A stretch of DNA of 64,000 nt. Source: Phycisphaerae bacterium. Lineage in GTDB: Bacteria > Planctomycetota > Phycisphaerae > WQYP01. The stretch is taken from NCBI GenBank assembly GCA_035545015.1, contig DASZZD010000079.1:623-64622 (forward strand), written 5' to 3'. A program made the position numbers and the translations under genes. Shown piece after piece: positions 11,930-19,021 of the stretch. Under the pieces are notes generated by a model. It did not search any database, was not told the DNA's origin, and saw only the letters and a program-made list of their open reading frames with translations. Each line of letters starts with the position of its first letter. Position 1 is the stretch's first letter.

Positions 11930-13081
<1,152 letters not shown>

Positions 13082-13111
13082 GCGAGGGCTGGGGCAGTGA
13101 TGCGTTGAATG

Positions 13112-13145
13112 AAGCCCGTGCGATTTTTCGCGCGGGCTTTTTTTG
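13112..13145 (+). terminator. Rho-independent terminator after gap
   Basis: aagcccgtgcga-ttttt-cgcgcgggctt hairpin followed by a run of T. Confidence 0.7.
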
Positions 13146-13255
13146 TGGCGGCGCTTTGCGGAGCGGGGACATTGCTGGGGTTTCGCGGGGCTGGTACTAT
13201 TTCCGGCTTGCGCGGGGGCGCGGGGGTTTCATCGTGTGAGGAGATTTCATCGCAT

Positions 13256-14219
13256 GCGCATCTTGTTGACGACGGCAAGTTTTCAGGAGACTCCGGGGCG
13301 GCACCATGAGGTGCTGGCGCAGTCAGGGTTTGAGGTAGCGCGGGCGAAGGGGCCGCTGTCGGAGCAGCAGATGCTGGAGCTGGTGACGAAGGATGGGGGA
13401 TTTGATGGGTTTTTGAATGGGGACGATCAGATCACGGCGAAGGTGATTGACGCGGCGCTGCCACGGTTGAAGGTGATAGCGAAGTATGGGATCGGGCTGG
13501 ATTCGATCGACGTGAAGCATGCGACGAGCAAGAAGCTGCCGGTGCTGTTTACGCCGGGGGTGAATCATACGACGGTGGCGGAGCATACGTTTGGGCTGAT
13601 GATTGCGCTGGCGAAGCATTTCTGGCCGAGCCTGCGGAGCACGAAGTCGGGCGGATGGAAGCGGATCACGGGGAGCGAGCTGGCGGGGAAGACGATTTCG
13701 GTGTTGGGCGTGGGACGCATCGGGAAGGAAGTGATCAAGCGGGCGAAGGCGTTCGACATGAACGCGATCGGTTATGACCAGTATTGGGATGAAGCGTTTG
13801 CCAAGCAATATGATGTGAAGCGCGCGGGCACGATCGAAGAGGCGGTGACGCAGGCGGATATCGTGTCGCTGCACATGAACCTGGATGAATCGAATCGCGG
13901 GTTCATCAACAAGGGGCTGATCAGCAAGATGCGCAAGGGGTCTTACATCATCAATACCGCGCGCGGCGGGTTGGTGGTGGAAAACGACATTGCGGAGGCG
14001 TGCAGGAGCGGGCACCTGGGCGGCTACGGCACGGACGTGCTCAACGAGGAGCCGCCGGCGAAGGATCATCCGTTCACGCAGATCGACAACATTCTGGTGA
14101 CGCCGCACATTGGGAGCCGGACGTTCGAGAGCGTGGAGCGACAGGCGTTGCGGGCGGTGCAGAATATCGTGGAGTTTTTGAAGGGCGGGAAAGATTACAT
14201 TCAGGCGAACAAGTTCTGA
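13256..14219 (+). CDS. D-isomer-specific 2-hydroxyacid dehydrogenase (SerA/PGDH-like)
   Basis: GVGRIGKEV NAD-binding motif. Catalytic-domain layout. Start taken at MRILLTT. Confidence 0.85.
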
Positions 14220-14222
14220 AGC

Positions 14223-14684
14223 ATGGCAAACCTGGGCGAAAATGACTATCGGAGCGGGGCGTACGAGCGGCTGCTGGAAGCGCAGAATCTTCAGCGAAGC
14301 AGATTGTTTGCGGGCGCGATTTACCTGGCAGGACGGGGTGTGGAGGGGATGCTGCGAGCGGTCATATGGAAGGGAGACGTACACATCAAAGCTGGGCGGA
14401 AGTCGCTGGAAACGGGTCATGACCTGCGTGATCTGCTGACGGAGATCGCGAATCTGGGTCTGCTACGGCGTGACGACCGGGACGAACGGTTTCGGGTGAA
14501 CGTACACAGGGTAGCCCGGTTATGGTTCAACGACATGCGTTTTGTGCCGTCGAGGTACGTAGAAAGGCGTTGGCGGAGAATCGGGGCCATTTCCGGCCGG
14601 GGGAATTTCAGCCAAGCCGCCGTCGAGTATCATGGCTGGTGTCTGGAAGTTGCCAAGCGCTGTGAGGCATTATGCGACCAGTGA
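14223..14684 (+). CDS. HEPN-domain protein (canonical PF05168-like) with C-terminal tail
   Basis: AIYLAGRGVEGMLRAVIWKGDVHIKAGRKSLETGHDLRDLL fits the HEPN helix pair plus the R-X6-H/THDL motif, and …FVPSRYVERR fits the SRYP-like end. Atypical codons (gta, cta, tta, aga, agg). Only 3 nt after the serA-like stop. Confidence 0.55.
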   Translation: MANLGENDYRSGAYERLLEAQNLQRSRLFAGAIYLAGRGVEGMLRAVIWKGDVHIKAGRKSLETGHDLRDLLTEIANLGLLRRDDRDERFRVNVHRVARLWFNDMRFVPSRYVERRWRRIGAISGRGNFSQAAVEYHGWCLEVAKRCEALCDQ

Positions 14685-14977
14685 GCAAGAAACGGCTAGA
14701 GGGACTGTTGACGAAGGAGCTGAAGCTAGCGGATGCGAGCTTTCGGCTGCAGCGGAATGGTTCGCGTTGGAGCGGGTCGATCATTTCGCGGTCGTTTCGC
14801 GGGCGTGATGACCTGAAGCGTCAGCGGCAGATCTGGGACGCACTGGAAAATGCTTTTGGAGAGGATTCACGGCAGGTGGTGGGGATGTTGTTTGCATACA
14901 CGCCTGATGAATGGGATATGGATTTGGAAGGTTTGCCGGCGCGTCCGCAACGGGCTCGCCGGCCATCGTCAAACTGA
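14672..14977 (+). CDS. Small hypothetical protein overlapping the HEPN gene by 13 nt (possible degenerate nucleotidyltransferase or antitoxin partner)
   Basis: Translational coupling with the HEPN gene. NGSRWSG resembles the GSxxxG of minimal nucleotidyltransferases, but a clear DxD is absent. Atypical codon usage. Confidence 0.4.
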
Positions 14978-14996
14978 ATGCACTTTGGAGCTTGAA

Positions 14997-16553
14997 ATGG
15001 ATAAGACGGCTGTTGCGGATGTCGGATTGATCGGTTTGGCGGTGATGGGCGAGAATTTGGCGCTCAACATGGCTGACCATGGGTATAAAGTGGCGGTGTA
15101 TAACCGGACGACGGAGGTGATGAAGAAGTTCATCGCGCGGGAGAATCCGCCGGGCGGGCTGGTGGGGTGCGAGACGCTGAAGGAACTGGTGGCGGCGATC
15201 AAGAAGCCGCGGAAGATCATTATTCTGGTGAAGGCGGGGCCGGCGGTGGATGCGGTGGTGAAGCAGCTTTTCGAGGCGGGGGTGGAGCCGGACGATATCG
15301 TGGCGGACTGCGGGAACTCGCTGTTTACGGACACGATTCGGCGGGAGAAGGAGTATGCGGCGAAGTGCAAGTTTTTCGGTTCGGGGGTTTCGGGCGGGGA
15401 GGTGGGGGCGCGGTTTGGGCCCTCGATGATGCCTGGGGGCGATCCGGATTCGTGGAAGCATTTGAAGCCGATCTGGGAGGCGGTGGCGGCGAAGGTGGAT
15501 GCGAAGACGGGCAAGCCGCTGGAGGATTACGCGCCGGGGAAACCGGTGGTGGGCGGGGTTCCATGCACGGCATACCTGGGGCCGAACGGGGCGGGGCATT
15601 ATGTGAAGATGGTGCACAACGGGATCGAATACATCGACATGCAGTTGATCTCGGAAGCGTACACGCTGATGTCGAATCTGCTGGGGATGAAGGCGCCGGA
15701 AATTGGCAAGGTGTTCGAGCAGTGGAACACGGGCGAGCTGGACAGCTATCTGATCCAGATCACGGCGGACATCCTGCAGCAACATGATCCGGTGCACAAG
15801 GAGGGATACCTCGTCGATTACATCCTGGACGCGGCGGGGCAGAAGGGCACGGGGAAGTGGACGAGCACGAACGCGCTGGACATGGGCATTCCGGCGAACG
15901 CGATCGCGGAGGCGGTCTTTGCGCGGTGCCTGTCGGCGTTGAAGGATGAGCGCGTGGAGGCGAGCAAGGTACTGAAGGGCCCGGCCAATGCGGCGAGCGC
16001 GGAGCAGGCGGCGCAGTGGTTCGGTGGGAAGCGCGAAGATTTGATCGCGGCGATCCGAGATGCGCTGTATTGCTCGAAGATTTGTGCGTATGCGCAGGGA
16101 TTCCAGCTCATGCGGGAGGCGCAGAAGGAATACAAGTGGAAGCTGAATTTCGCGGAGATCGCGGCGATTTTCCGCGGCGGGTGCATCATCCGGGCGCGGT
16201 TCCTGCAGAAAATCACCGACGCTTACACCAAGAATGCGAACCTGGTGAATCTGCTGCTCGATCCTTATTTCAACGAGCAGATTCAGAAGGGGCAGGGGAA
16301 TTGGCGCAAGGTGGTGGCGCTGGCGGCGACCAACGGGGTGGCGGCGCCGGCGTTCATGTCGGCGCTGGCGTATTACGATGGGTATCGGTCGGCGCGACTG
16401 CCGGCGAATTTGCTGCAGGGGCAGCGGGATTACTTCGGGGCGCATACGTATGAGCGCGTGGATGCGCCGCGCGGGAAGTTTTTCCATACGGATTGGCCGG
16501 AGAAGGGGCGGCCGCAGATTGATATCGTGCCGGGGAGCGGGGGCGGGCACTGA
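14997..16553 (+). CDS. gnd: 6-phosphogluconate dehydrogenase, decarboxylating
   Basis: [30 protein letters not shown]…, full-length Gnd. Start at MDKTAV (ATG 14997). Confidence 0.9.
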
Positions 16554-16584
16554 GACCGGGTGTGACAGGCTCTAGGTCAGGCGT

Positions 16585-17433
16585 GTGGTCTTCGATATAA
16601 TTTCACCGAGGAGACTCACCGTGACCACGATGGTGCCGAGCCATGACCGCCGAAATGATCCGGCGGTGGGTGCGCGCCTTTATTTGTTTACGGTGGACGA
16701 ATACTTTGCGCTTGGCGAGACGGGTATTCTGCCGGAAGACGACCCTGTCGAATTGATAGAGGGCCTTCTCGCGATTAAGAGCGACATCGTGCCGCCGTAT
16801 GGTGTTCCGGTGGGCATACCGCCACGGGAGATCTGGCCTGAGGGGGCGGCATGGACGAACCATCCGCTACGTCGTCTGACGGTCAGGGAATATGCAAAGA
16901 TCGTTCGTGCGGGTATTCTCGATCCCACGAAGCGTCACGAACTGATCGAAGGCTGGATCGTTGAAAAAATGAGTCGCAATCCCCCGCACGACTATGTGCT
17001 TTCGTCGATTCAGGACCTTTTGGGTGCGGCGCTTCCCGCAGACTGGTACTTGCGTGTGCAGATGGGGGTAACGCTGGATGAAAGCACGCCGGAGCCAGAT
17101 CTCGCGGTGGTGATATGGCCGCGCACTTACTTTCAGGAGCGGCATCCGACGCCGGGAGAAATCGGCTTGATCGTGGAGGTGGCCGATACGACCCTGCCGC
17201 TGGATCTGGGGCCGAAGCGCCGCTCCTACGCACGGAACGGGGTATCGCAATATTGGGTTGCTGATTTGCCGAATCGGCAACTTCACGTATTCAGCGATCC
17301 CAGCGGTCCGACGGATGTGCCGGCATTTGGCCAGCACCGGACACTCACGCTCAATGACCAGGTGTCGCTAAACATCCTGGACAAGCTGGTCGCCGGCTTT
17401 GCTGTGCGCGATTTATTCGGCTTACAAAGCTGA
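16585..17433 (+). CDS. Uma2 family endonuclease (DUF820, PD-(D/E)XK) with duplicated N-terminal segment
   Basis: EPDLAVVIW…GEIGLIVEVADTT…YARNGVSQYWVADL core. Two tandem copies of the N-terminal motif (LYLFTVDEYFALGETGILPEDDPVELIEG and RRLTVREYAKIVRAGILDPTKRHELIEG). Atypical codons (ata, tta, cta, aga). The start may be 16630. Confidence 0.75.
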   Translation: MVFDIISPRRLTVTTMVPSHDRRNDPAVGARLYLFTVDEYFALGETGILPEDDPVELIEGLLAIKSDIVPPYGVPVGIPPREIWPEGAAWTNHPLRRLTVREYAKIVRAGILDPTKRHELIEGWIVEKMSRNPPHDYVLSSIQDLLGAALPADWYLRVQMGVTLDESTPEPDLAVVIWPRTYFQERHPTPGEIGLIVEVADTTLPLDLGPKRRSYARNGVSQYWVADLPNRQLHVFSDPSGPTDVPAFGQHRTLTLNDQVSLNILDKLVAGFAVRDLFGLQS

Positions 17434-17434
17434 A

Positions 17435-18556
17435 ATGCTTGCTACTTTTGCCAAGGAATCTTTTGTGCCCACGAATTACATTCTTCCGACCAATGTTCAT
17501 AACGCTCTTGTCGAGGCGGCTTATCGTCATCGCGGCTACACCGAGGACGAGGCGGCGGCGGGGGCGAAGTTTTCGGAGTTGACGGCGTGGCACGGCATCA
17601 AGACGCATAACGCGATCAAGGCGCTGCATCTGGATGAGTTGTTCGGGTCGAAGGCGGGCGGGTGCAAACCGGGGGCGCAGATCACGAAGATTCCGTCGAA
17701 GTACAAGGCGGTGGAGAAGTGGGATGCGAACCGGAAGCTGGGGCAGGCGACGGCGTTTGCGGCGATGGACCGGTGCATGCAACTGGCGGACGAGTATGGG
17801 ACGGGGATCGTCGCGGTGGACAATGCGTTTCATTATTTGTGGGGCGGCGGGTATGTGATCGATGCGGCGAAGAAGGGGTACGTCGCGTACACGGCGTGCA
17901 CGGCGGCGCTGGCGGAAGTTGTGCCGTTTGGCGGGCGGTATCCGACGCTGGGGACGAACCCGCACTCGTGGGGATTTCCGACGACGGAGGAGATTGGGTT
18001 TCCGATCTGCATCGATTGGGCGACATCGGTGGTGGCGATGGGAAGGATTCAGCAGTTCATTCGTGAGGGGAAGGCGGTGCCGGAGGGATGGGGCGTGGAT
18101 GAGGCGGGGAATCCGACAACGGATCCGAATAAGGTGAAGGCGCTGTTTCCGTTCGGGCAGCACAAGGGATATGGGCTGTCGCTGATCGACGAGTTGTATG
18201 CGGCGTATATTGGCGGCTCGACGCCGACGATTCGGAATCGCTGGGACAAGGTGCCGGCGGGGGAGAAGGGGACGTGCTGCTTTTATTTTCAGTGCACGCG
18301 GCCGGATGCGATCGCGGTGGATTTCGTGAAAGGGCGGACGCAGAAGGACAACGTGAAGGCGGTGATTTCCGATATTCTGGGGCACGGGAATGAGAAGGCG
18401 ATTTTGCCCGGGCAACTGGAGGCGAACGCGGCGGCGCTGTCGGCGAAGCATGGGGGGCTGCTGTTTACAAAGGCGGAGATCGAGGCGTTCGGGGAGATCG
18501 CGAAGGAGGCGGGGTTCAGGTTTGATGCGGCGGGGCTGAAGACGATTGAAGCGTGA
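17435..18556 (+). CDS. Ldh_2 family (malate/L-lactate/sulfolactate dehydrogenase-like) oxidoreductase
   Basis: Family-typical length and motifs (…GTNPHSWGFP…GQHKGYGLSLIDEL…). Host-like codon usage after the first ~14 codons. Confidence 0.8.
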   Translation: MLATFAKESFVPTNYILPTNVHNALVEAAYRHRGYTEDEAAAGAKFSELTAWHGIKTHNAIKALHLDELFGSKAGGCKPGAQITKIPSKYKAVEKWDANRKLGQATAFAAMDRCMQLADEYGTGIVAVDNAFHYLWGGGYVIDAAKKGYVAYTACTAALAEVVPFGGRYPTLGTNPHSWGFPTTEEIGFPICIDWATSVVAMGRIQQFIREGKAVPEGWGVDEAGNPTTDPNKVKALFPFGQHKGYGLSLIDELYAAYIGGSTPTIRNRWDKVPAGEKGTCCFYFQCTRPDAIAVDFVKGRTQKDNVKAVISDILGHGNEKAILPGQLEANAAALSAKHGGLLFTKAEIEAFGEIAKEAGFRFDAAGLKTIEA

Positions 18557-18562
18557 GTTCAC

Positions 18563-19021
18563 ATGGTCGTCAGAAGCCGCAGCCGTTTACGCGGGCCGTT
18601 GGGAGATGATTATCTTCGGCTTGTGCGTGCGCATCCTCTCAAGGCCATCCGCAGCGATACGGAGCTGCGCGCCGCGCACGGAGTGCTCGATACGCTTGCC
18701 GCGATCGACGAAGAAAGGCTTACTTCCGGCCAGGCCGACTATCTTCTGGCGCTCACCGATCTTGTCTGGGCGTATGAACAGCAGCATCACGCGGTGGATC
18801 TTGCGACGGGCGATCGTGCCGACGGCATCGATGTGCTTCGCGTGCTGCTCGACGAGAACAATCTGAATGCCAGCGACCTGGGCCGGCTGCTGGGGAAACG
18901 GCAACTTGGCTCCGCTATTTTGCGAGGTAAACGGCAACTTTCAAAGGCGCATGTCGTGCGGCTGGCGGATTATTTCGGCGTTTCCACGGACATTTTGCTC
19001 CGCACGAAATCTCGACGATAA
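18563..19021 (+). CDS. HigA-like XRE-family HTH protein (COG5499-type antitoxin); no toxin gene adjacent
   Basis: C-terminal HTH LGRLLGKRQLGSAILRGKRQLSKAHVVRLADYFGVS. N-terminal ELRAAHGVLDTLAA…YLLALTDLVWAYE is typical of HigA-type antitoxins. Atypical C/T-ending codons on a strand where host genes are G-ending. Confidence 0.6.
   Translation: MVVRSRSRLRGPLGDDYLRLVRAHPLKAIRSDTELRAAHGVLDTLAAIDEERLTSGQADYLLALTDLVWAYEQQHHAVDLATGDRADGIDVLRVLLDENNLNASDLGRLLGKRQLGSAILRGKRQLSKAHVVRLADYFGVSTDILLRTKSRR

What the first reader, a model, noticed from the sequence alone, without database searches (positions are those of the whole stretch)
14223..14977. Compositionally foreign HEPN-domain gene plus overlapping small partner wedged between the serA-like gene and gnd: candidate HEPN-based toxin/defence pair with a non-standard partner
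The 153-aa protein has the canonical HEPN layout: helix pair …AIYLAGRGVEGMLRAVIWK…, R-X6-H with the THDL-like motif (GRKSLETGHDLRDLL), and a later SRY motif, plus an extra ~40-aa tail. It starts 3 nt after the serA-like stop. Its last 13 nt overlap the start of a 101-aa ORF that ends 20 nt before gnd. Both use codons that are rare in host genes (gta, cta, tta, aga, agg). Canonical HEPN proteins pair with an MNT nucleotidyltransferase that is usually encoded upstream. Here the partner is downstream and carries only a GSxxxG-like remnant (NGSRWSG) without a clear DxD. It may therefore be a divergent or inactive nucleotidyltransferase, or a different kind of antitoxin.
Basis: partly seen in the sequence, partly recalled or inferred. 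Interest (0 to 1): 0.6.

Follow-up and report, generated by a model that had tools for sequence, protein, structure and literature searches.

The report
HEPN gene paired with BolA-like partner
Two small overlapping genes between a dehydrogenase gene and gnd form a conserved cassette, a HEPN-fold (RNase-type) protein plus a BolA-fold protein that lacks BolA's iron-sulfur ligand; it looks like an undescribed toxin-antitoxin-like module of Phycisphaerae, with function untested.

Summary
ORF1 is 14223-14684 (153 aa) and ORF2 is 14672-14977 (101 aa), with a 13-nt overlap.

ORF1 is a HEPN protein of the PF05168 (HEPN-T) clade. Homologues pass Pfam's threshold, and the AlphaFold model (pLDDT 94) matches solved HEPN domains first. 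R59 and "SRY" are variable. The conserved residues are E41-x3-R45, H66 and N103-x2-R106, as in AF0298-like HEPNs with an alternative active site.

ORF2 is not a degenerate nucleotidyltransferase. It has a BolA fold: its profile hits only BolA chains in the PDB, and the top 22 fold matches are BolA proteins. It has no conserved His or Cys where BolA binds its Fe-S cluster.

The two genes travel together. All 27 HEPN-seeded loci carry the partner, and 63 of 77 assessable partner-seeded copies carry the HEPN. The genes overlap in 53 of 54 distinct pairs. The cassette sits in at least 45 genomic contexts, almost all in Phycisphaerae, and its codon usage is atypical for the host.

No profile library or paper searched describes this pairing. 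The best reading is a type II toxin-antitoxin-like module (confidence about 0.5). The main rival is a cooperating RNA-binding pair, supported by long retention inside a groEL-dnaJ operon.

The parts
14223..14684 (+). HEPN-fold protein gene (153 aa), PF05168 / HEPN-T clade, AF0298-like motif pattern. Putative metal-independent RNase and the candidate toxin.
   Evidence: 78 homologues. 37 of 52 hit PF05168 at E<=0.1, and five tested homologues score above the 22-bit gathering cut-off. AlphaFold pLDDT 94.3. The top six Foldseek PDB hits are all HEPN domains. Invariant residues are Y9, R16, L23, E41, L44, R45, G65 and H66.
14343..14357 (+). Codons E41-G-M-L-R45, the Ex3[KR] motif of HEPN helix 2.
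   Evidence: E41 and R45 are invariant in 52 of 52 sequences. The motif is defined in PMC3710099.
14397..14429 (+). Codons 59-69 (RKSLETGHDLR). This is the loop and helix start between core helices 2 and 3, and it carries the invariant H66 (14418-14420).
   Evidence: H66 52/52, G65 52/52, T64 49/52, K60 45/52. R59 is R in only 28/52 and K in 17/52. The secondary structure comes from the model.
14529..14543 (+). Codons N103-D-M-R106-F107. A conserved basic residue follows core helix 3, with no His 4-6 residues downstream.
   Evidence: N103 51/52, R106 51/52, F/Y107 52/52. Positions 110-112 are variable.
14661..14684 (+). Translational-coupling junction. TGTGAGG (codons C147-E148-A149) supplies a GAGG Shine-Dalgarno-like site 4 nt before the ORF2 ATG (14672). 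The ORF1 stop TGA is at 14682-14684.
   Evidence: 53 of 54 non-identical pairs overlap, and 25 of 54 overlap by exactly 13 nt. TG[TC]GAGG-N4-ATG recurs in all 12 junctions printed.
14672..14977 (+). BolA-fold partner gene (101 aa). It lacks the Fe-S ligand His/Cys and has a basic, low-confidence C-terminal tail (residues ~85-101). Candidate antitoxin or RNA-binding partner.
   Evidence: PF01722 16.5 bits, E=0.011. 36 of 51 relatives hit BolA at E<=0.1. The family profile hits only BolA chains in the PDB, best 6.6e-7. AlphaFold pLDDT 90.7 with topology a1-b1-b2-a2-b3-a3. The top 22 Foldseek PDB hits are all BolA family. No conserved His or Cys in the family.
13263..14219 (+). Upstream flank: D-2-hydroxyacid dehydrogenase (serA-like). 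Not part of the cassette, but probably the source of transcription.
   Evidence: PF02826 6.6e-54. The only terminator-like site upstream is at 13111-13140. On the + strand no terminator-like site lies between it and 16455-16473.
14997..16553 (+). Downstream flank: 6-phosphogluconate dehydrogenase (gnd). Not part of the cassette.
   Evidence: PF00393 6e-132.

Best explanation
The two genes form a self-contained, translationally coupled module that has spread or persisted as a unit in Phycisphaerae (Planctomycetota). The most likely function is a type II toxin-antitoxin-like pair.

In this model the upstream HEPN protein is a metal-independent RNase. Its active site would be built from the invariant H66 (in the insert between helices 2 and 3), the conserved basic residue R106 after helix 3, and the E41-x3-R45 motif of helix 2. 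This is the 'alternative' arrangement predicted for AF0298-like HEPN-T proteins.

The downstream BolA-fold protein is made whenever the HEPN protein is made. Its start codon lies inside the end of the HEPN gene, and its ribosome-binding GAGG is encoded by the conserved Cys-Glu codons of the HEPN C-terminus. It would neutralise the RNase by direct binding. Loss of the partner, for example by proteolysis starting at its disordered basic tail, would free the RNase and arrest growth.

**Shown here:** the folds, the conserved residues, the obligate gene pairing, the overlap, the varied genomic contexts, and the atypical codon usage.

**Inferred:** RNase activity, toxicity, neutralisation by binding, and the trigger.
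For: **Fold and family.**
- HEPN assignment.
- BolA assignment.
- The motif pattern matches the description of AF0298-like and AbiV HEPNs in PMC3710099. AbiV is an experimentally shown RNase with its motif in a flexible inter-helix segment.

**Linkage of the two genes.**
- All 27 loci found with the HEPN query (20 distinct sequences) carry the partner immediately downstream.
- Of 82 partner copies found with the partner query, 5 lack enough upstream DNA to judge. Of the other 77, 63 have the HEPN immediately upstream.
- Distant subfamilies keep the same architecture: L111, L114 and L116.
- 53 of 54 distinct pairs overlap, most often by 13 nt.
- HEPN and partner identity matrices correlate, r=0.64, with 0 of 2000 permutations reaching that value.

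**Behaviour like an accessory module.**
- 77 loci with at least 2 kb of flank fall into 45 unrelated neighbourhoods. Examples are serA/gnd, hypA/hypB and groEL/dnaJ.
- Two MAGs in the set yielded two loci each. In one of them the second locus (L029) is only a HEPN fragment without a partner.
- Codon usage is atypical.
- Neighbours are often other toxin-antitoxin or mobile-type genes: Uma2, BrnT, PIN/PhdYeFM, DUF2442/DUF4160.

**Direction of decay.** HEPN is truncated, reduced to a remnant or absent next to an intact partner in L027, L059, L093, L112, L063, L041, L051 and L078. The reverse was seen once, in L023, a MAG with 3.3x coverage. Toxin-first gene order with a small unrelated protein antitoxin has a HEPN precedent in RnlA-RnlB (PMC8266594, listed).
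Against: - No experiment and no complex model.
- The canonical Rx4-6H motif is not conserved, so the protein could be a non-catalytic RNA binder. PMC3710099 allows this for HEPNs that lack the motif.
- Both proteins are basic, with median pI 9.7 for the HEPN and 9.8 for the partner. Many antitoxins are acidic.
- In one lineage the cassette has stayed between groEL and dnaJ while DnaJ diverged to about 70-77% identity. That looks like a domesticated function more than a selfish element.
- The decay asymmetry is not statistically significant (Fisher p=0.11).
- No copy was found on plasmids, phages or viral contigs. PADLOC gives no hit.
- In the window the cassette has no recognisable promoter of its own.
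Confidence: 0.5

Rival explanations
1. The pair is a cooperating RNA-binding or RNA-processing complex, not a toxin-antitoxin pair. The HEPN protein (catalytic or not) and the KH-like BolA-fold protein act together on an RNA such as rRNA, tRNA or a stress mRNA. This would be part of a stress response, which explains the long-term residence in heat-shock and housekeeping operons.
For: - Both proteins are basic.
- The largest context group (13 of 77 loci) is groEL / cassette / dnaJ-grpE. The cassette is retained there while DnaJ diverges to 70-77% identity.
- A lone partner sits in the same slot in L063.
- BolA-fold proteins occur as rRNA-bound subunits of the Toxoplasma mitoribosome among the fold hits.
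- The canonical catalytic motif is degenerate.
- PMC3710099 proposes RNA-level stress roles for HEPN next to chaperone domains, as in sacsin.
Against: - 45 unrelated contexts and atypical codon usage fit an accessory module better than a core function.
- The partner can stand alone, but an intact HEPN was found without an intact partner only once, in L023. That is unexpected for two equal subunits.
- H66, E41, R45 and R106 are conserved as strictly as catalytic residues usually are.
Confidence: 0.3
2. ORF2 is an ordinary BolA/IbaG-type protein that works with monothiol glutaredoxin in Fe-S cluster handling or as a stress morphogene. The HEPN gene is just a neighbour.
For: JGI names close homologues 'acid stress-induced BolA-like protein IbaG/YrbA'. 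The fold and sequence signature are BolA-like.
Against: - No column of the family alignment has a conserved His or Cys. Gly71 (47/51) stands where I place BolA's ligand His by eye, and H of 'RHR' is Gln in 44/51.
- Every Pfam score for which bits were returned is below the BolA gathering cut-off of 25.7. The window copy scores 16.5 bits.
- The gene is coupled to a HEPN gene in 63 of 77 assessable copies and overlaps it.
- No glutaredoxin gene appears among the neighbours listed.
Confidence: 0.07
3. One reading: ORF2 is a degenerate minimal nucleotidyltransferase (MNT), making this a decayed HEPN-MNT system.
For: The window protein contains NGSRWSG, a loose likeness to the GSxxxG motif. One partner-only locus (L052) has a true MNT gene directly upstream of the BolA-like gene.
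Against: - No PF01909 or Polbeta hit for ORF2 or for any of 51 relatives.
- The predicted fold is a1-b1-b2-a2-b3-a3, and its first 22 PDB matches are BolA proteins with no nucleotidyltransferase in the 50 matches listed.
- There is no DxD motif.
- S34 and S36 are variable. Only G35 of that stretch is invariant.
Confidence: 0.01
4. The ORFs are chance open frames in GC-rich DNA, or a decayed pseudogene pair.
For: GC-rich windows like this carry many long spurious ORFs. Examples are the antisense ORFs 13323-14420 and 14781-16550.
Against: - Hundreds of homologues exist.
- The structure models are confident.
- Substitutions against L014 are almost all synonymous.
- The start/stop overlap is conserved.
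Confidence: 0.01

Closest known systems
HEPN-T clade (Pfam PF05168), especially the AF0298-like group (PDB 2hsb) described by Anantharaman et al. 2013 (PMC3710099)
   Same: - Same fold, and homologues score above the PF05168 threshold.
- Ex3[KR] motif in helix 2.
- A strongly conserved His in the insert between helices 2 and 3.
- A basic residue kept at the canonical motif position with no His 4-6 residues after it.
   Different: - It has an extra conserved C-terminal helix (residues ~129-152, with C140, R146, C147 and E148).
- It is never next to or fused with a nucleotidyltransferase in the loci examined.
- It is paired with a BolA-fold gene instead.
HEPN-MNT toxin-antitoxin systems (HepT-MntA, e.g. 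Shewanella SO_3166/SO_3165; PDB 5yep, 7bxo)
   Same: A small HEPN protein in a two-gene, overlapping, co-directional cassette scattered over chromosomes. The HEPN is the toxin in those systems.
   Different: - The partner there is a Pol-beta nucleotidyltransferase that AMPylates a Tyr of the RX4HXY motif and is encoded upstream.
- Here the partner has a BolA fold and is encoded downstream.
- There is no RX4HXY motif here.
- The fold match to HepT is weak (Foldseek E about 1).
RnlA-RnlB / LsoA-LsoB (HEPN RNase toxins with small unrelated protein antitoxins)
   Same: The HEPN toxin gene comes first, followed by a small protein antitoxin of unrelated fold that is thought to act by direct binding.
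   Different: - RnlA and LsoA are large multi-domain proteins with a canonical motif.
- RnlB and LsoB are not BolA-like.
- Those systems are plasmid- or phage-linked defence systems in Enterobacteria.
AbiV (Lactococcus; PDB 9bj6; bioRxiv 10.1101/2024.05.05.592566)
   Same: A small dimeric HEPN with a non-standard motif placed in a flexible inter-helix segment. It is an experimentally shown RNase, and it appears among the weaker fold hits.
   Different: The AbiV antidote is reported to be an RNA (type III). No BolA-like gene is involved. Sequence similarity is negligible.
BolA / IbaG (YrbA) family (Pfam PF01722; PDB 2dhm, 1ny8, 4puh, 3tr3)
   Same: - Same a1-b1-b2-a2-b3-a3 fold.
- Conserved F-x-G, an Arg at the start of helix 2, and a C-terminal (T)P-x-E-W.
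   Different: - No His or Cys Fe-S ligand.
- 'RHR' has become R-Q-[RK].
- It has an added basic tail, which ends in [KR][KR]AG in about 20 of 51 relatives.
- It is genetically tied to a HEPN gene.
- It is sometimes duplicated in tandem or fused as two domains.

Membership tests
HEPN superfamily / PF05168 (HEPN-T) | All-alpha up-down helical bundle with an insert between core helices 2 and 3 | tested here: met
HEPN superfamily / PF05168 (HEPN-T) | Profile match to PF05168 at or above the gathering score (22 bits) | tested here: met
   The window protein itself gives no hit. Homologues related to it at E<=1e-33 score 25.6-28.0 bits (P0041, P0048, P0061). More distant cassette HEPNs score 28.8 (L111) and 35.1 (L065). 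37 of 52 family members hit at E<=0.1. Membership is therefore by transitivity.
HEPN superfamily / PF05168 (HEPN-T) | Rx4-6H catalytic motif at the end of core helix 3 | tested here: not met
R99 (44/52) and R106 (51/52) are conserved after helix 85-100, but no His is conserved 4-6 residues downstream. PMC3710099 lists this pattern as an accepted variant of HEPN-T (AF0298-like) with a possible alternative active site. It lowers the claim of a canonical active site, not the claim of fold membership.
HEPN superfamily / PF05168 (HEPN-T) | Ex3[KR] motif in helix 2 | tested here: met
   E41 and R45 are invariant in 52/52 sequences and lie in helix 29-51.
HEPN superfamily / PF05168 (HEPN-T) | Metal-independent endoribonuclease activity | not testable with these tools
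   Needs purified protein and an RNA cleavage assay.
HEPN-MNT (HepT-MntA) toxin-antitoxin system | Adjacent minimal nucleotidyltransferase (PF01909 / PF18765) gene | tested here: not met
   Pfam hits for the adjacent genes are 2-Hacid_dh (upstream), BolA (weak, for ORF2) and 6PGD (downstream); none is a nucleotidyltransferase. None of the neighbours listed in the six context look-ups is an MNT.
HEPN-MNT (HepT-MntA) toxin-antitoxin system | RX4HXY motif with the Tyr that is AMPylated | tested here: not met
   No such motif in the sequence. H66 is followed by D-L-R.
BolA family (PF01722) | a1-b1-b2-(eta)-a2-b3-a3 fold | tested here: met
   Model elements are H6-17, E23-29, E32-38, H47-69, E70-76 and H78-81, with pLDDT 90.7. 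The top 22 Foldseek PDB hits are all BolA family, E 4e-5 to 9e-3, prob 1.00.
BolA family (PF01722) | Profile match at or above the gathering score (25.7 bits) | tested here: not met
   The window protein scores 16.5 bits, E=0.011. 36 of 51 relatives hit at E<=0.1, best 2e-5. The scored examples reach 20.4-20.8 bits. In the other direction, the family profile finds 16 of 16 BolA-family chains in the PDB sequence set, best 32.5 bits, E=6.6e-7. This is a divergent branch of the superfamily, not a member by Pfam's own threshold.
BolA family (PF01722) | Conserved His (BolA_H) or Cys (BolA_C) that ligates the [2Fe-2S] cluster shared with a monothiol glutaredoxin | tested here: not met
   No column between positions 28 and 84 has more than 8 His or 3 Cys in 51 sequences. 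Gly71 (47/51) stands at the start of beta3, where I place the BolA His by eye. HMMER aligned that stretch differently, so only the absence of any conserved His or Cys is firm.
BolA family (PF01722) | F-x-G ... R-H-R signature before and in helix 2 | tested here: inconclusive
   F42 51/51, G44 35/51, R50 51/51. The His is Gln in 44/51, and the third position is R/K in 26/51. The signature is partly kept.
Type II toxin-antitoxin module (generic) | Two small adjacent co-directional genes, usually overlapping, inherited as a unit | tested here: met
Type II toxin-antitoxin module (generic) | Occurrence in many unrelated genomic contexts, patchy distribution, multiple copies | tested here: met
   45 contexts among 77 loci. 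Two MAGs yielded two loci each, one of them (L029) only a HEPN fragment. True presence/absence across Phycisphaerae genomes was not measured.
Type II toxin-antitoxin module (generic) | Toxin arrests growth; antitoxin binds and neutralises it; antitoxin is labile | not testable with these tools
   Needs expression, pull-down and stability experiments.

The most novel reading that the evidence does not exclude
A BolA-fold protein that has lost its iron-sulfur ligand has been recruited as the dedicated partner of a HEPN RNase with a non-canonical active site. In at least one Phycisphaerae lineage this pair is a long-standing component of the groEL-dnaJ-grpE heat-shock operon. There it would act as an RNA-level arm of the heat-shock response, cutting or masking ribosomal or transfer RNA when protein folding fails. 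That would be a bacterial counterpart of the HEPN-DnaJ-Hsp90 combination seen in animal sacsin.
Probability: 0.12. Interest if true: 0.8.

Novelty: new variant of a known kind. Interest (0 to 1): 0.58.

Why it matters
HEPN RNases are the effectors of many toxin-antitoxin, abortive-infection and CRISPR systems, and what distinguishes those systems is how the RNase is held in check. The partners I know of are nucleotidyltransferases that AMPylate the toxin, small unrelated proteins (RnlB, LsoB), and RNAs (AbiV).

A BolA-fold partner would add a new control principle. It would also give the BolA superfamily a function unrelated to glutaredoxin and Fe-S chemistry.

The family is large: 173 cluster representatives for the partner and 121 HEPN proteins found in two searches. 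It is unannotated in Pfam, NCBIfam and PADLOC, and confined to a poorly studied, mostly uncultured phylum. Its conserved residues (H66, R106, E41, R45) give direct mutational tests of the 'alternative HEPN active site' predicted in 2013. Its repeated residence in a heat-shock operon offers a testable link between HEPN proteins and proteotoxic stress.

Tried and rejected
- **Single-sequence profile searches of ORF1.** Pfam, NCBIfam and PADLOC gave nothing. The HEPN assignment needed the family.
- **HEPN family profile against PDB sequences.** No meaningful hit.
- **Nucleotidyltransferase reading of ORF2.** Rejected.
- **Defence-island or mobile-element origin.**
  - No relative on viral contigs, plasmids or in BFVD.
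  - Only a weak PHROG hit of unknown function (phrog_5737, 3.1e-5).
- **Insertion scars.** Only short, chance-level direct and inverted repeats flank the cassette.
- **RNA elements.** No Rfam match at E<=0.1 in 12500-17500.
- **Own promoter or terminator.** None found beyond chance.
- **Literature.** No paper in the library links HEPN with BolA or describes a BolA-like antitoxin. The word-start hits I opened were author names such as 'Bolam'.
- **Searches I could not run.**
  - The first partner alignment was too diverse for the metagenome scan. A narrower one worked.
- **Decay asymmetry as statistical evidence.** HEPN is lost more often than the partner, but this is not significant (Fisher p=0.11, or 0.27 after removing duplicates).
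Full report
**1. What is in the sequence**

| Feature | Coordinates | Note |
|---|---|---|
| serA-like gene | 13263-14219 (+) | D-2-hydroxyacid dehydrogenase, PF02826 6.6e-54 |
| ORF1 | 14223-14684 (+) | 153 aa; starts 3 nt after the upstream stop |
| ORF2 | 14672-14977 (+) | 101 aa; overlaps ORF1 by 13 nt (ATGCGACCAGTGA) |
| gnd | 14997-16553 (+) | PF00393 6e-132; starts 19 nt after ORF2 ends |
| Uma2-family gene | 16585-17433 (+) | follows gnd |

On the + strand, the only terminator-like sites nearby are at 13111-13140 (after the GAPDH gene) and at 16455-16473, which lies inside the 3' end of gnd. The region has no above-chance promoter match. In this genome the cassette is therefore probably transcribed with its neighbours.

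Both ORFs are real genes.
- Each has many homologues.
- Each gives a confident structure model.
- Against a relative with 95% DNA identity (L014, a Phycisphaerae MAG), ORF1 shows 5 synonymous and 0 non-synonymous codon differences. ORF2 shows 5 synonymous and 1 non-synonymous.

**2. Is the cassette compositionally foreign?**

Not in bulk GC, which is 0.58-0.60, like the flanks. It is atypical in codon choice.

| Measure | ORF1 | ORF2 | Reference genes |
|---|---|---|---|
| CAI z-score (18 + strand genes) | -2.55 | -1.9 | 0 by definition |
| A at third codon position | 0.16 | 0.16 | 0.05 |
| G at third codon position | 0.42 | 0.51 | 0.61 |
| GC3 | 0.67 | 0.62 | 0.77 |
| GTA/CTA/TTA/AGA/AGG/ATA per 1000 codons | 85 | 19.8 (two CTA only) | 11.8 |

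The neighbouring Uma2 gene is equally atypical (z -2.5). The gene set is heuristic, so the z-scores are approximate. Low expression could produce the same pattern as foreign origin.

**3.

*Family and fold.*
- The window protein alone hits no Pfam, NCBIfam or PADLOC model.
- It has 78 homologues at E<=1e-3. Of 52 aligned full-length members, 37 hit PF05168 (HEPN) at E<=0.1.
- Several homologues exceed the 22-bit gathering score: 25.6-28.0 bits in the close family, and 28.8 and 35.1 bits in distant cassette HEPNs.
- The AlphaFold model is all-helical, with pLDDT 94.3 and pTM 0.90.
- Its six best PDB matches are all HEPN domains: ST0689, TT1696, TM0613, AF0298 and two chains of sacsin HEPN. All have prob 1.00 and TM 0.56-0.70.

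*Conserved residues.*
- E41 and R45 are invariant. This is the Ex3[KR] motif of helix 2.
- H66 is invariant within L-E-T-G-H-D-L-R.
- N103, R106 and F/Y107 are 51-52 of 52.
K60 is K in 45 of 52.
- The 'SRY' triplet at 110-112 is variable.

*Where these residues sit.* By the model's secondary structure, H66 lies in the insert between core helices 2 and 3. R99 and R106 follow core helix 3 (residues 85-100), which is where the canonical motif should be. No His is conserved 4-6 residues downstream of them.

This is the pattern that Anantharaman et al. 2013 describe for AF0298-like HEPN-T proteins and AbiV. In those, the His of Rx4-6H is lost, the basic residue is kept, and a second conserved His from the helix 2-3 insert may form an alternative active site (PMC3710099). 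AbiV has since been shown to be a metal-independent RNase whose motif lies in a flexible inter-helix segment (bioRxiv 10.1101/2024.05.05.592566).

I could not inspect model coordinates. Whether H66 pairs with R106 or with the basic residues at 59/60 is therefore undecided.

**4. ORF2 is a BolA-fold protein, not a nucleotidyltransferase**

*Evidence for the BolA fold.*
- ORF2 gives weak BolA hits: PF01722 E=0.011, NCBIfam BolA E=0.014. JGI names two close homologues 'BolA-like IbaG/YrbA'.
- An exhaustive profile search found 173 cluster representatives at E<=1e-3.
- 36 of 51 aligned relatives hit PF01722 at E<=0.1, and none hit a nucleotidyltransferase model.
- The family profile finds 16 PDB sequences, all of them BolA family. 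The best are Arabidopsis BolA2 at 6.6e-7, E. coli BolA at 4.2e-5 and E. coli YrbA/IbaG at 8.8e-5.
- The model (pLDDT 90.7) has the BolA topology a1-b1-b2-a2-b3-a3. Its first 22 PDB matches are all BolA proteins.

*How it differs from ordinary BolA proteins.*
- No position has a conserved His or Cys, so the ligand of the glutaredoxin-shared [2Fe-2S] cluster is missing.
- 'RHR' is R-Q-[RK].
- A basic, low-confidence tail follows the conserved (T)P-x-E-W. About 20 of 51 relatives end in [KR][KR]AG, while the window copy ends in RRPSSN.
- Every Pfam score for which bits were returned is below the BolA gathering cut-off. This is a divergent branch of the superfamily.

**5. The two genes are one unit**

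*Pairing.*
- All six context look-ups for HEPN homologues show an overlapping 87-105 aa gene immediately downstream.
- With HMMs of both families, all 27 HEPN-seeded loci with room (20 distinct sequences) have the partner.
- In 80 metagenome loci fetched with the partner as bait, there are 82 partner copies. Of these, 63 have the HEPN immediately upstream, 5 lack upstream DNA, and 14 (about 8 distinct) do not have it.
- Several of those 14 carry HEPN remnants (L059, L093), or a different PF05168 HEPN further upstream followed by a fused double BolA-like gene (L065).
- A second, distant subfamily keeps the same architecture. It includes L111, L114, L116 and 43 homologues, one of them named Planctomycetota. 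L114 again has a 13-nt overlap, and L111 has two partner genes.

*Overlap.*
- In 53 of 54 non-identical pairs the partner's start lies inside the HEPN gene, and in 25 of 54 the overlap is exactly 13 nt.
- The junction reads TG[TC]GAGG-N4-ATG in all 12 examples printed. The GAGG ribosome-binding site of the partner is therefore encoded by the near-invariant Cys147-Glu148 codons of the HEPN.

*Co-inheritance.* Pairwise identities of the two proteins correlate, with r=0.64 and 0 of 2000 permutations reaching that value.

**6. Where the cassette occurs**

*Taxonomy.* All 16 hits in the species-representative genome collection are Phycisphaerae MAGs (Tepidisphaeraceae or Phycisphaerales), or in one case a MAG labelled only Planctomycetota. 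Two MAGs yielded two loci each, though one of these (L029) is only a HEPN fragment without a partner. One protein hit is labelled Sumerlaeota. No copy was found on viral contigs, plasmids or among viral structure models.

*Genomic contexts.* The 77 loci with at least 2 kb of flank fall into 45 groups that share no flanking gene. Examples are serA-like/gnd (window, L001, L014), hypA/hypB, and a divergent promoter region next to dnaK.

*The heat-shock group.* The largest group has 13 loci with the order groEL / cassette / dnaJ-grpE. Within it DnaJ is 70-77% identical, the HEPN 44-67% and the partner 39-61%. The cassette has therefore stayed in that slot over a long period.

The cassette combines two properties. 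It has many unrelated locations, as accessory modules do. It is also retained for a long time in some operons.

**7. How it most likely works**

My best explanation, with confidence about 0.5, is a type II toxin-antitoxin-like module.
- The HEPN dimer is an RNase that uses H66 with R106 (or K60) and E41/R45.
- The BolA-fold protein is co-translated with it and neutralises it by binding.
- Loss of the partner frees the RNase.

*Support.*
- The module architecture.
- The contexts and the atypical codon usage.
- Frequent toxin-antitoxin-type neighbours: Uma2, BrnT, PIN/PhdYeFM, DUF2442/DUF4160.
- The direction of decay. The HEPN has a premature stop right after H66 in L027. It is reduced to a remnant or truncated in L059, L093 and L112, and absent in L041, L051, L063 and L078, each next to an intact partner. 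The opposite, an intact HEPN with a frameshifted partner, was seen once, in a MAG with 3.3x coverage (L023). The asymmetry is suggestive but not significant (p=0.11).
- Toxin-first order with a small unrelated protein antitoxin has a HEPN precedent in RnlA-RnlB.

*Against.*
- Both proteins are basic (median pI 9.7 and 9.8).
- The canonical motif is missing.
- The cassette lacks its own promoter here.
- The cassette has resided for a long time in heat-shock operons.

These points feed the main rival (confidence about 0.3). In that reading the two proteins cooperate on an RNA target as part of a stress response, with the KH-like BolA fold as an RNA-binding adaptor. BolA-fold subunits of a mitoribosome appear among the fold hits.

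The other readings are poorly supported.

| Reading | Confidence |
|---|---|
| Ordinary BolA/IbaG function | about 0.07 |
| Decayed MNT | about 0.01 |
| Chance ORFs | about 0.01 |

**8. Comparison with what is known, and novelty**

The HEPN belongs to the known HEPN-T clade in its AF0298-like variant. The partner belongs to the BolA superfamily but fails that family's functional hallmark, the Fe-S ligand, and scores below its Pfam threshold.

The system fails the defining test of HEPN-MNT systems, because it has no nucleotidyltransferase and no RX4HXY motif. It may work like RnlAB-type HEPN systems without being a member of them.

Neither PADLOC, NCBIfam nor Pfam models the pair. Full-text searches found no paper linking HEPN with BolA, or BolA-like proteins with antitoxins.

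I rate it a new variant of a known kind: a HEPN two-gene module with a new partner fold. Interest is moderate to fairly high, and it rests entirely on comparative evidence.

**9. Limits**

- No experiment was done, no complex model was made, and I had no access to model coordinates.
- The genome scan used one strict peptide pattern, so true prevalence and presence/absence in Phycisphaerae are unknown.
- Most loci are metagenomic, and some frameshifts may be assembly errors.

Noticed in passing
window 1-64000 (sign changes near 37-38 kb and 53.5 kb): The window has extreme strand asymmetry. GC skew is +0.2 to +0.5 over 1-36 kb and 54-64 kb, and -0.2 to -0.36 over 40-52 kb. At third codon positions the + strand is G-rich whatever the gene orientation: coding-strand GC3 skew is about +0.5 for + genes and -0.5 to -0.8 for - genes. 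Other Phycisphaerae loci fetched here have a median |skew| of 0.04. The 16-kb block of opposite sign could be an inversion or an assembly joint.
   Followed up: partly
window 14223-14977 versus L014 2562-3316: Against a relative with 95% DNA identity, the cassette differs at 11 of 755 distinct positions (1.5%). The flanking serA-like and gnd genes differ at 135 of 2514 positions (5.4%), mostly synonymous. The cause could be recent recombination or transfer of the cassette between strains, or constraint on synonymous sites. This was not resolved.
   Followed up: partly
window 16585-17433: A Uma2-family putative restriction endonuclease gene (PF05685, 1.9e-25) directly follows gnd. It is as codon-atypical as the cassette (CAI z -2.5). 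The small ORF 18563-19021 is also atypical (z -2.9).
   Followed up: no
L052 94-918: A true minimal nucleotidyltransferase gene (PF01909, 37.6 bits) lies directly upstream of a BolA-like partner gene, with no HEPN gene between them. It is the only such locus seen, and its meaning is unclear.
   Followed up: partly
L065 2659-3291, L068, L112 598-1146, L111 522-1078: The BolA-like partner can be duplicated. It appears as two domains fused in one ORF (L065/L068, L112), or as two separate tandem genes after the HEPN (L111).
   Followed up: partly
partner family alignment A3 (C-termini): About 20 of 51 partner proteins end in [KR][KR]AG after a basic tail. The window copy and its closest relatives end in ...SSN instead. 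This could be a degradation or interaction signal.
   Followed up: no
L005, L016, L020, L035, L036, L063, L075, L098, L099, L105 and others: The cassette recurs between groEL and dnaJ-grpE in a diverged lineage (DnaJ 70-77% identical). In L063 only the BolA-like gene remains in that slot.
   Followed up: partly
L027 3992-4459; L023 4392-4796: L027 has a premature stop in the HEPN gene right after the invariant His, with an intact partner. L023 is a MAG with 3.3x coverage. It has an intact HEPN and a frameshifted partner, the only case of that kind, and it may be an assembly error.
   Followed up: yes
window 13111-13140: A strong intrinsic-terminator-like hairpin (13 pairs, followed by a T-run) follows the GAPDH gene. 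It marks the likely start of the transcription unit serA-like / HEPN / BolA-like / gnd.
   Followed up: no
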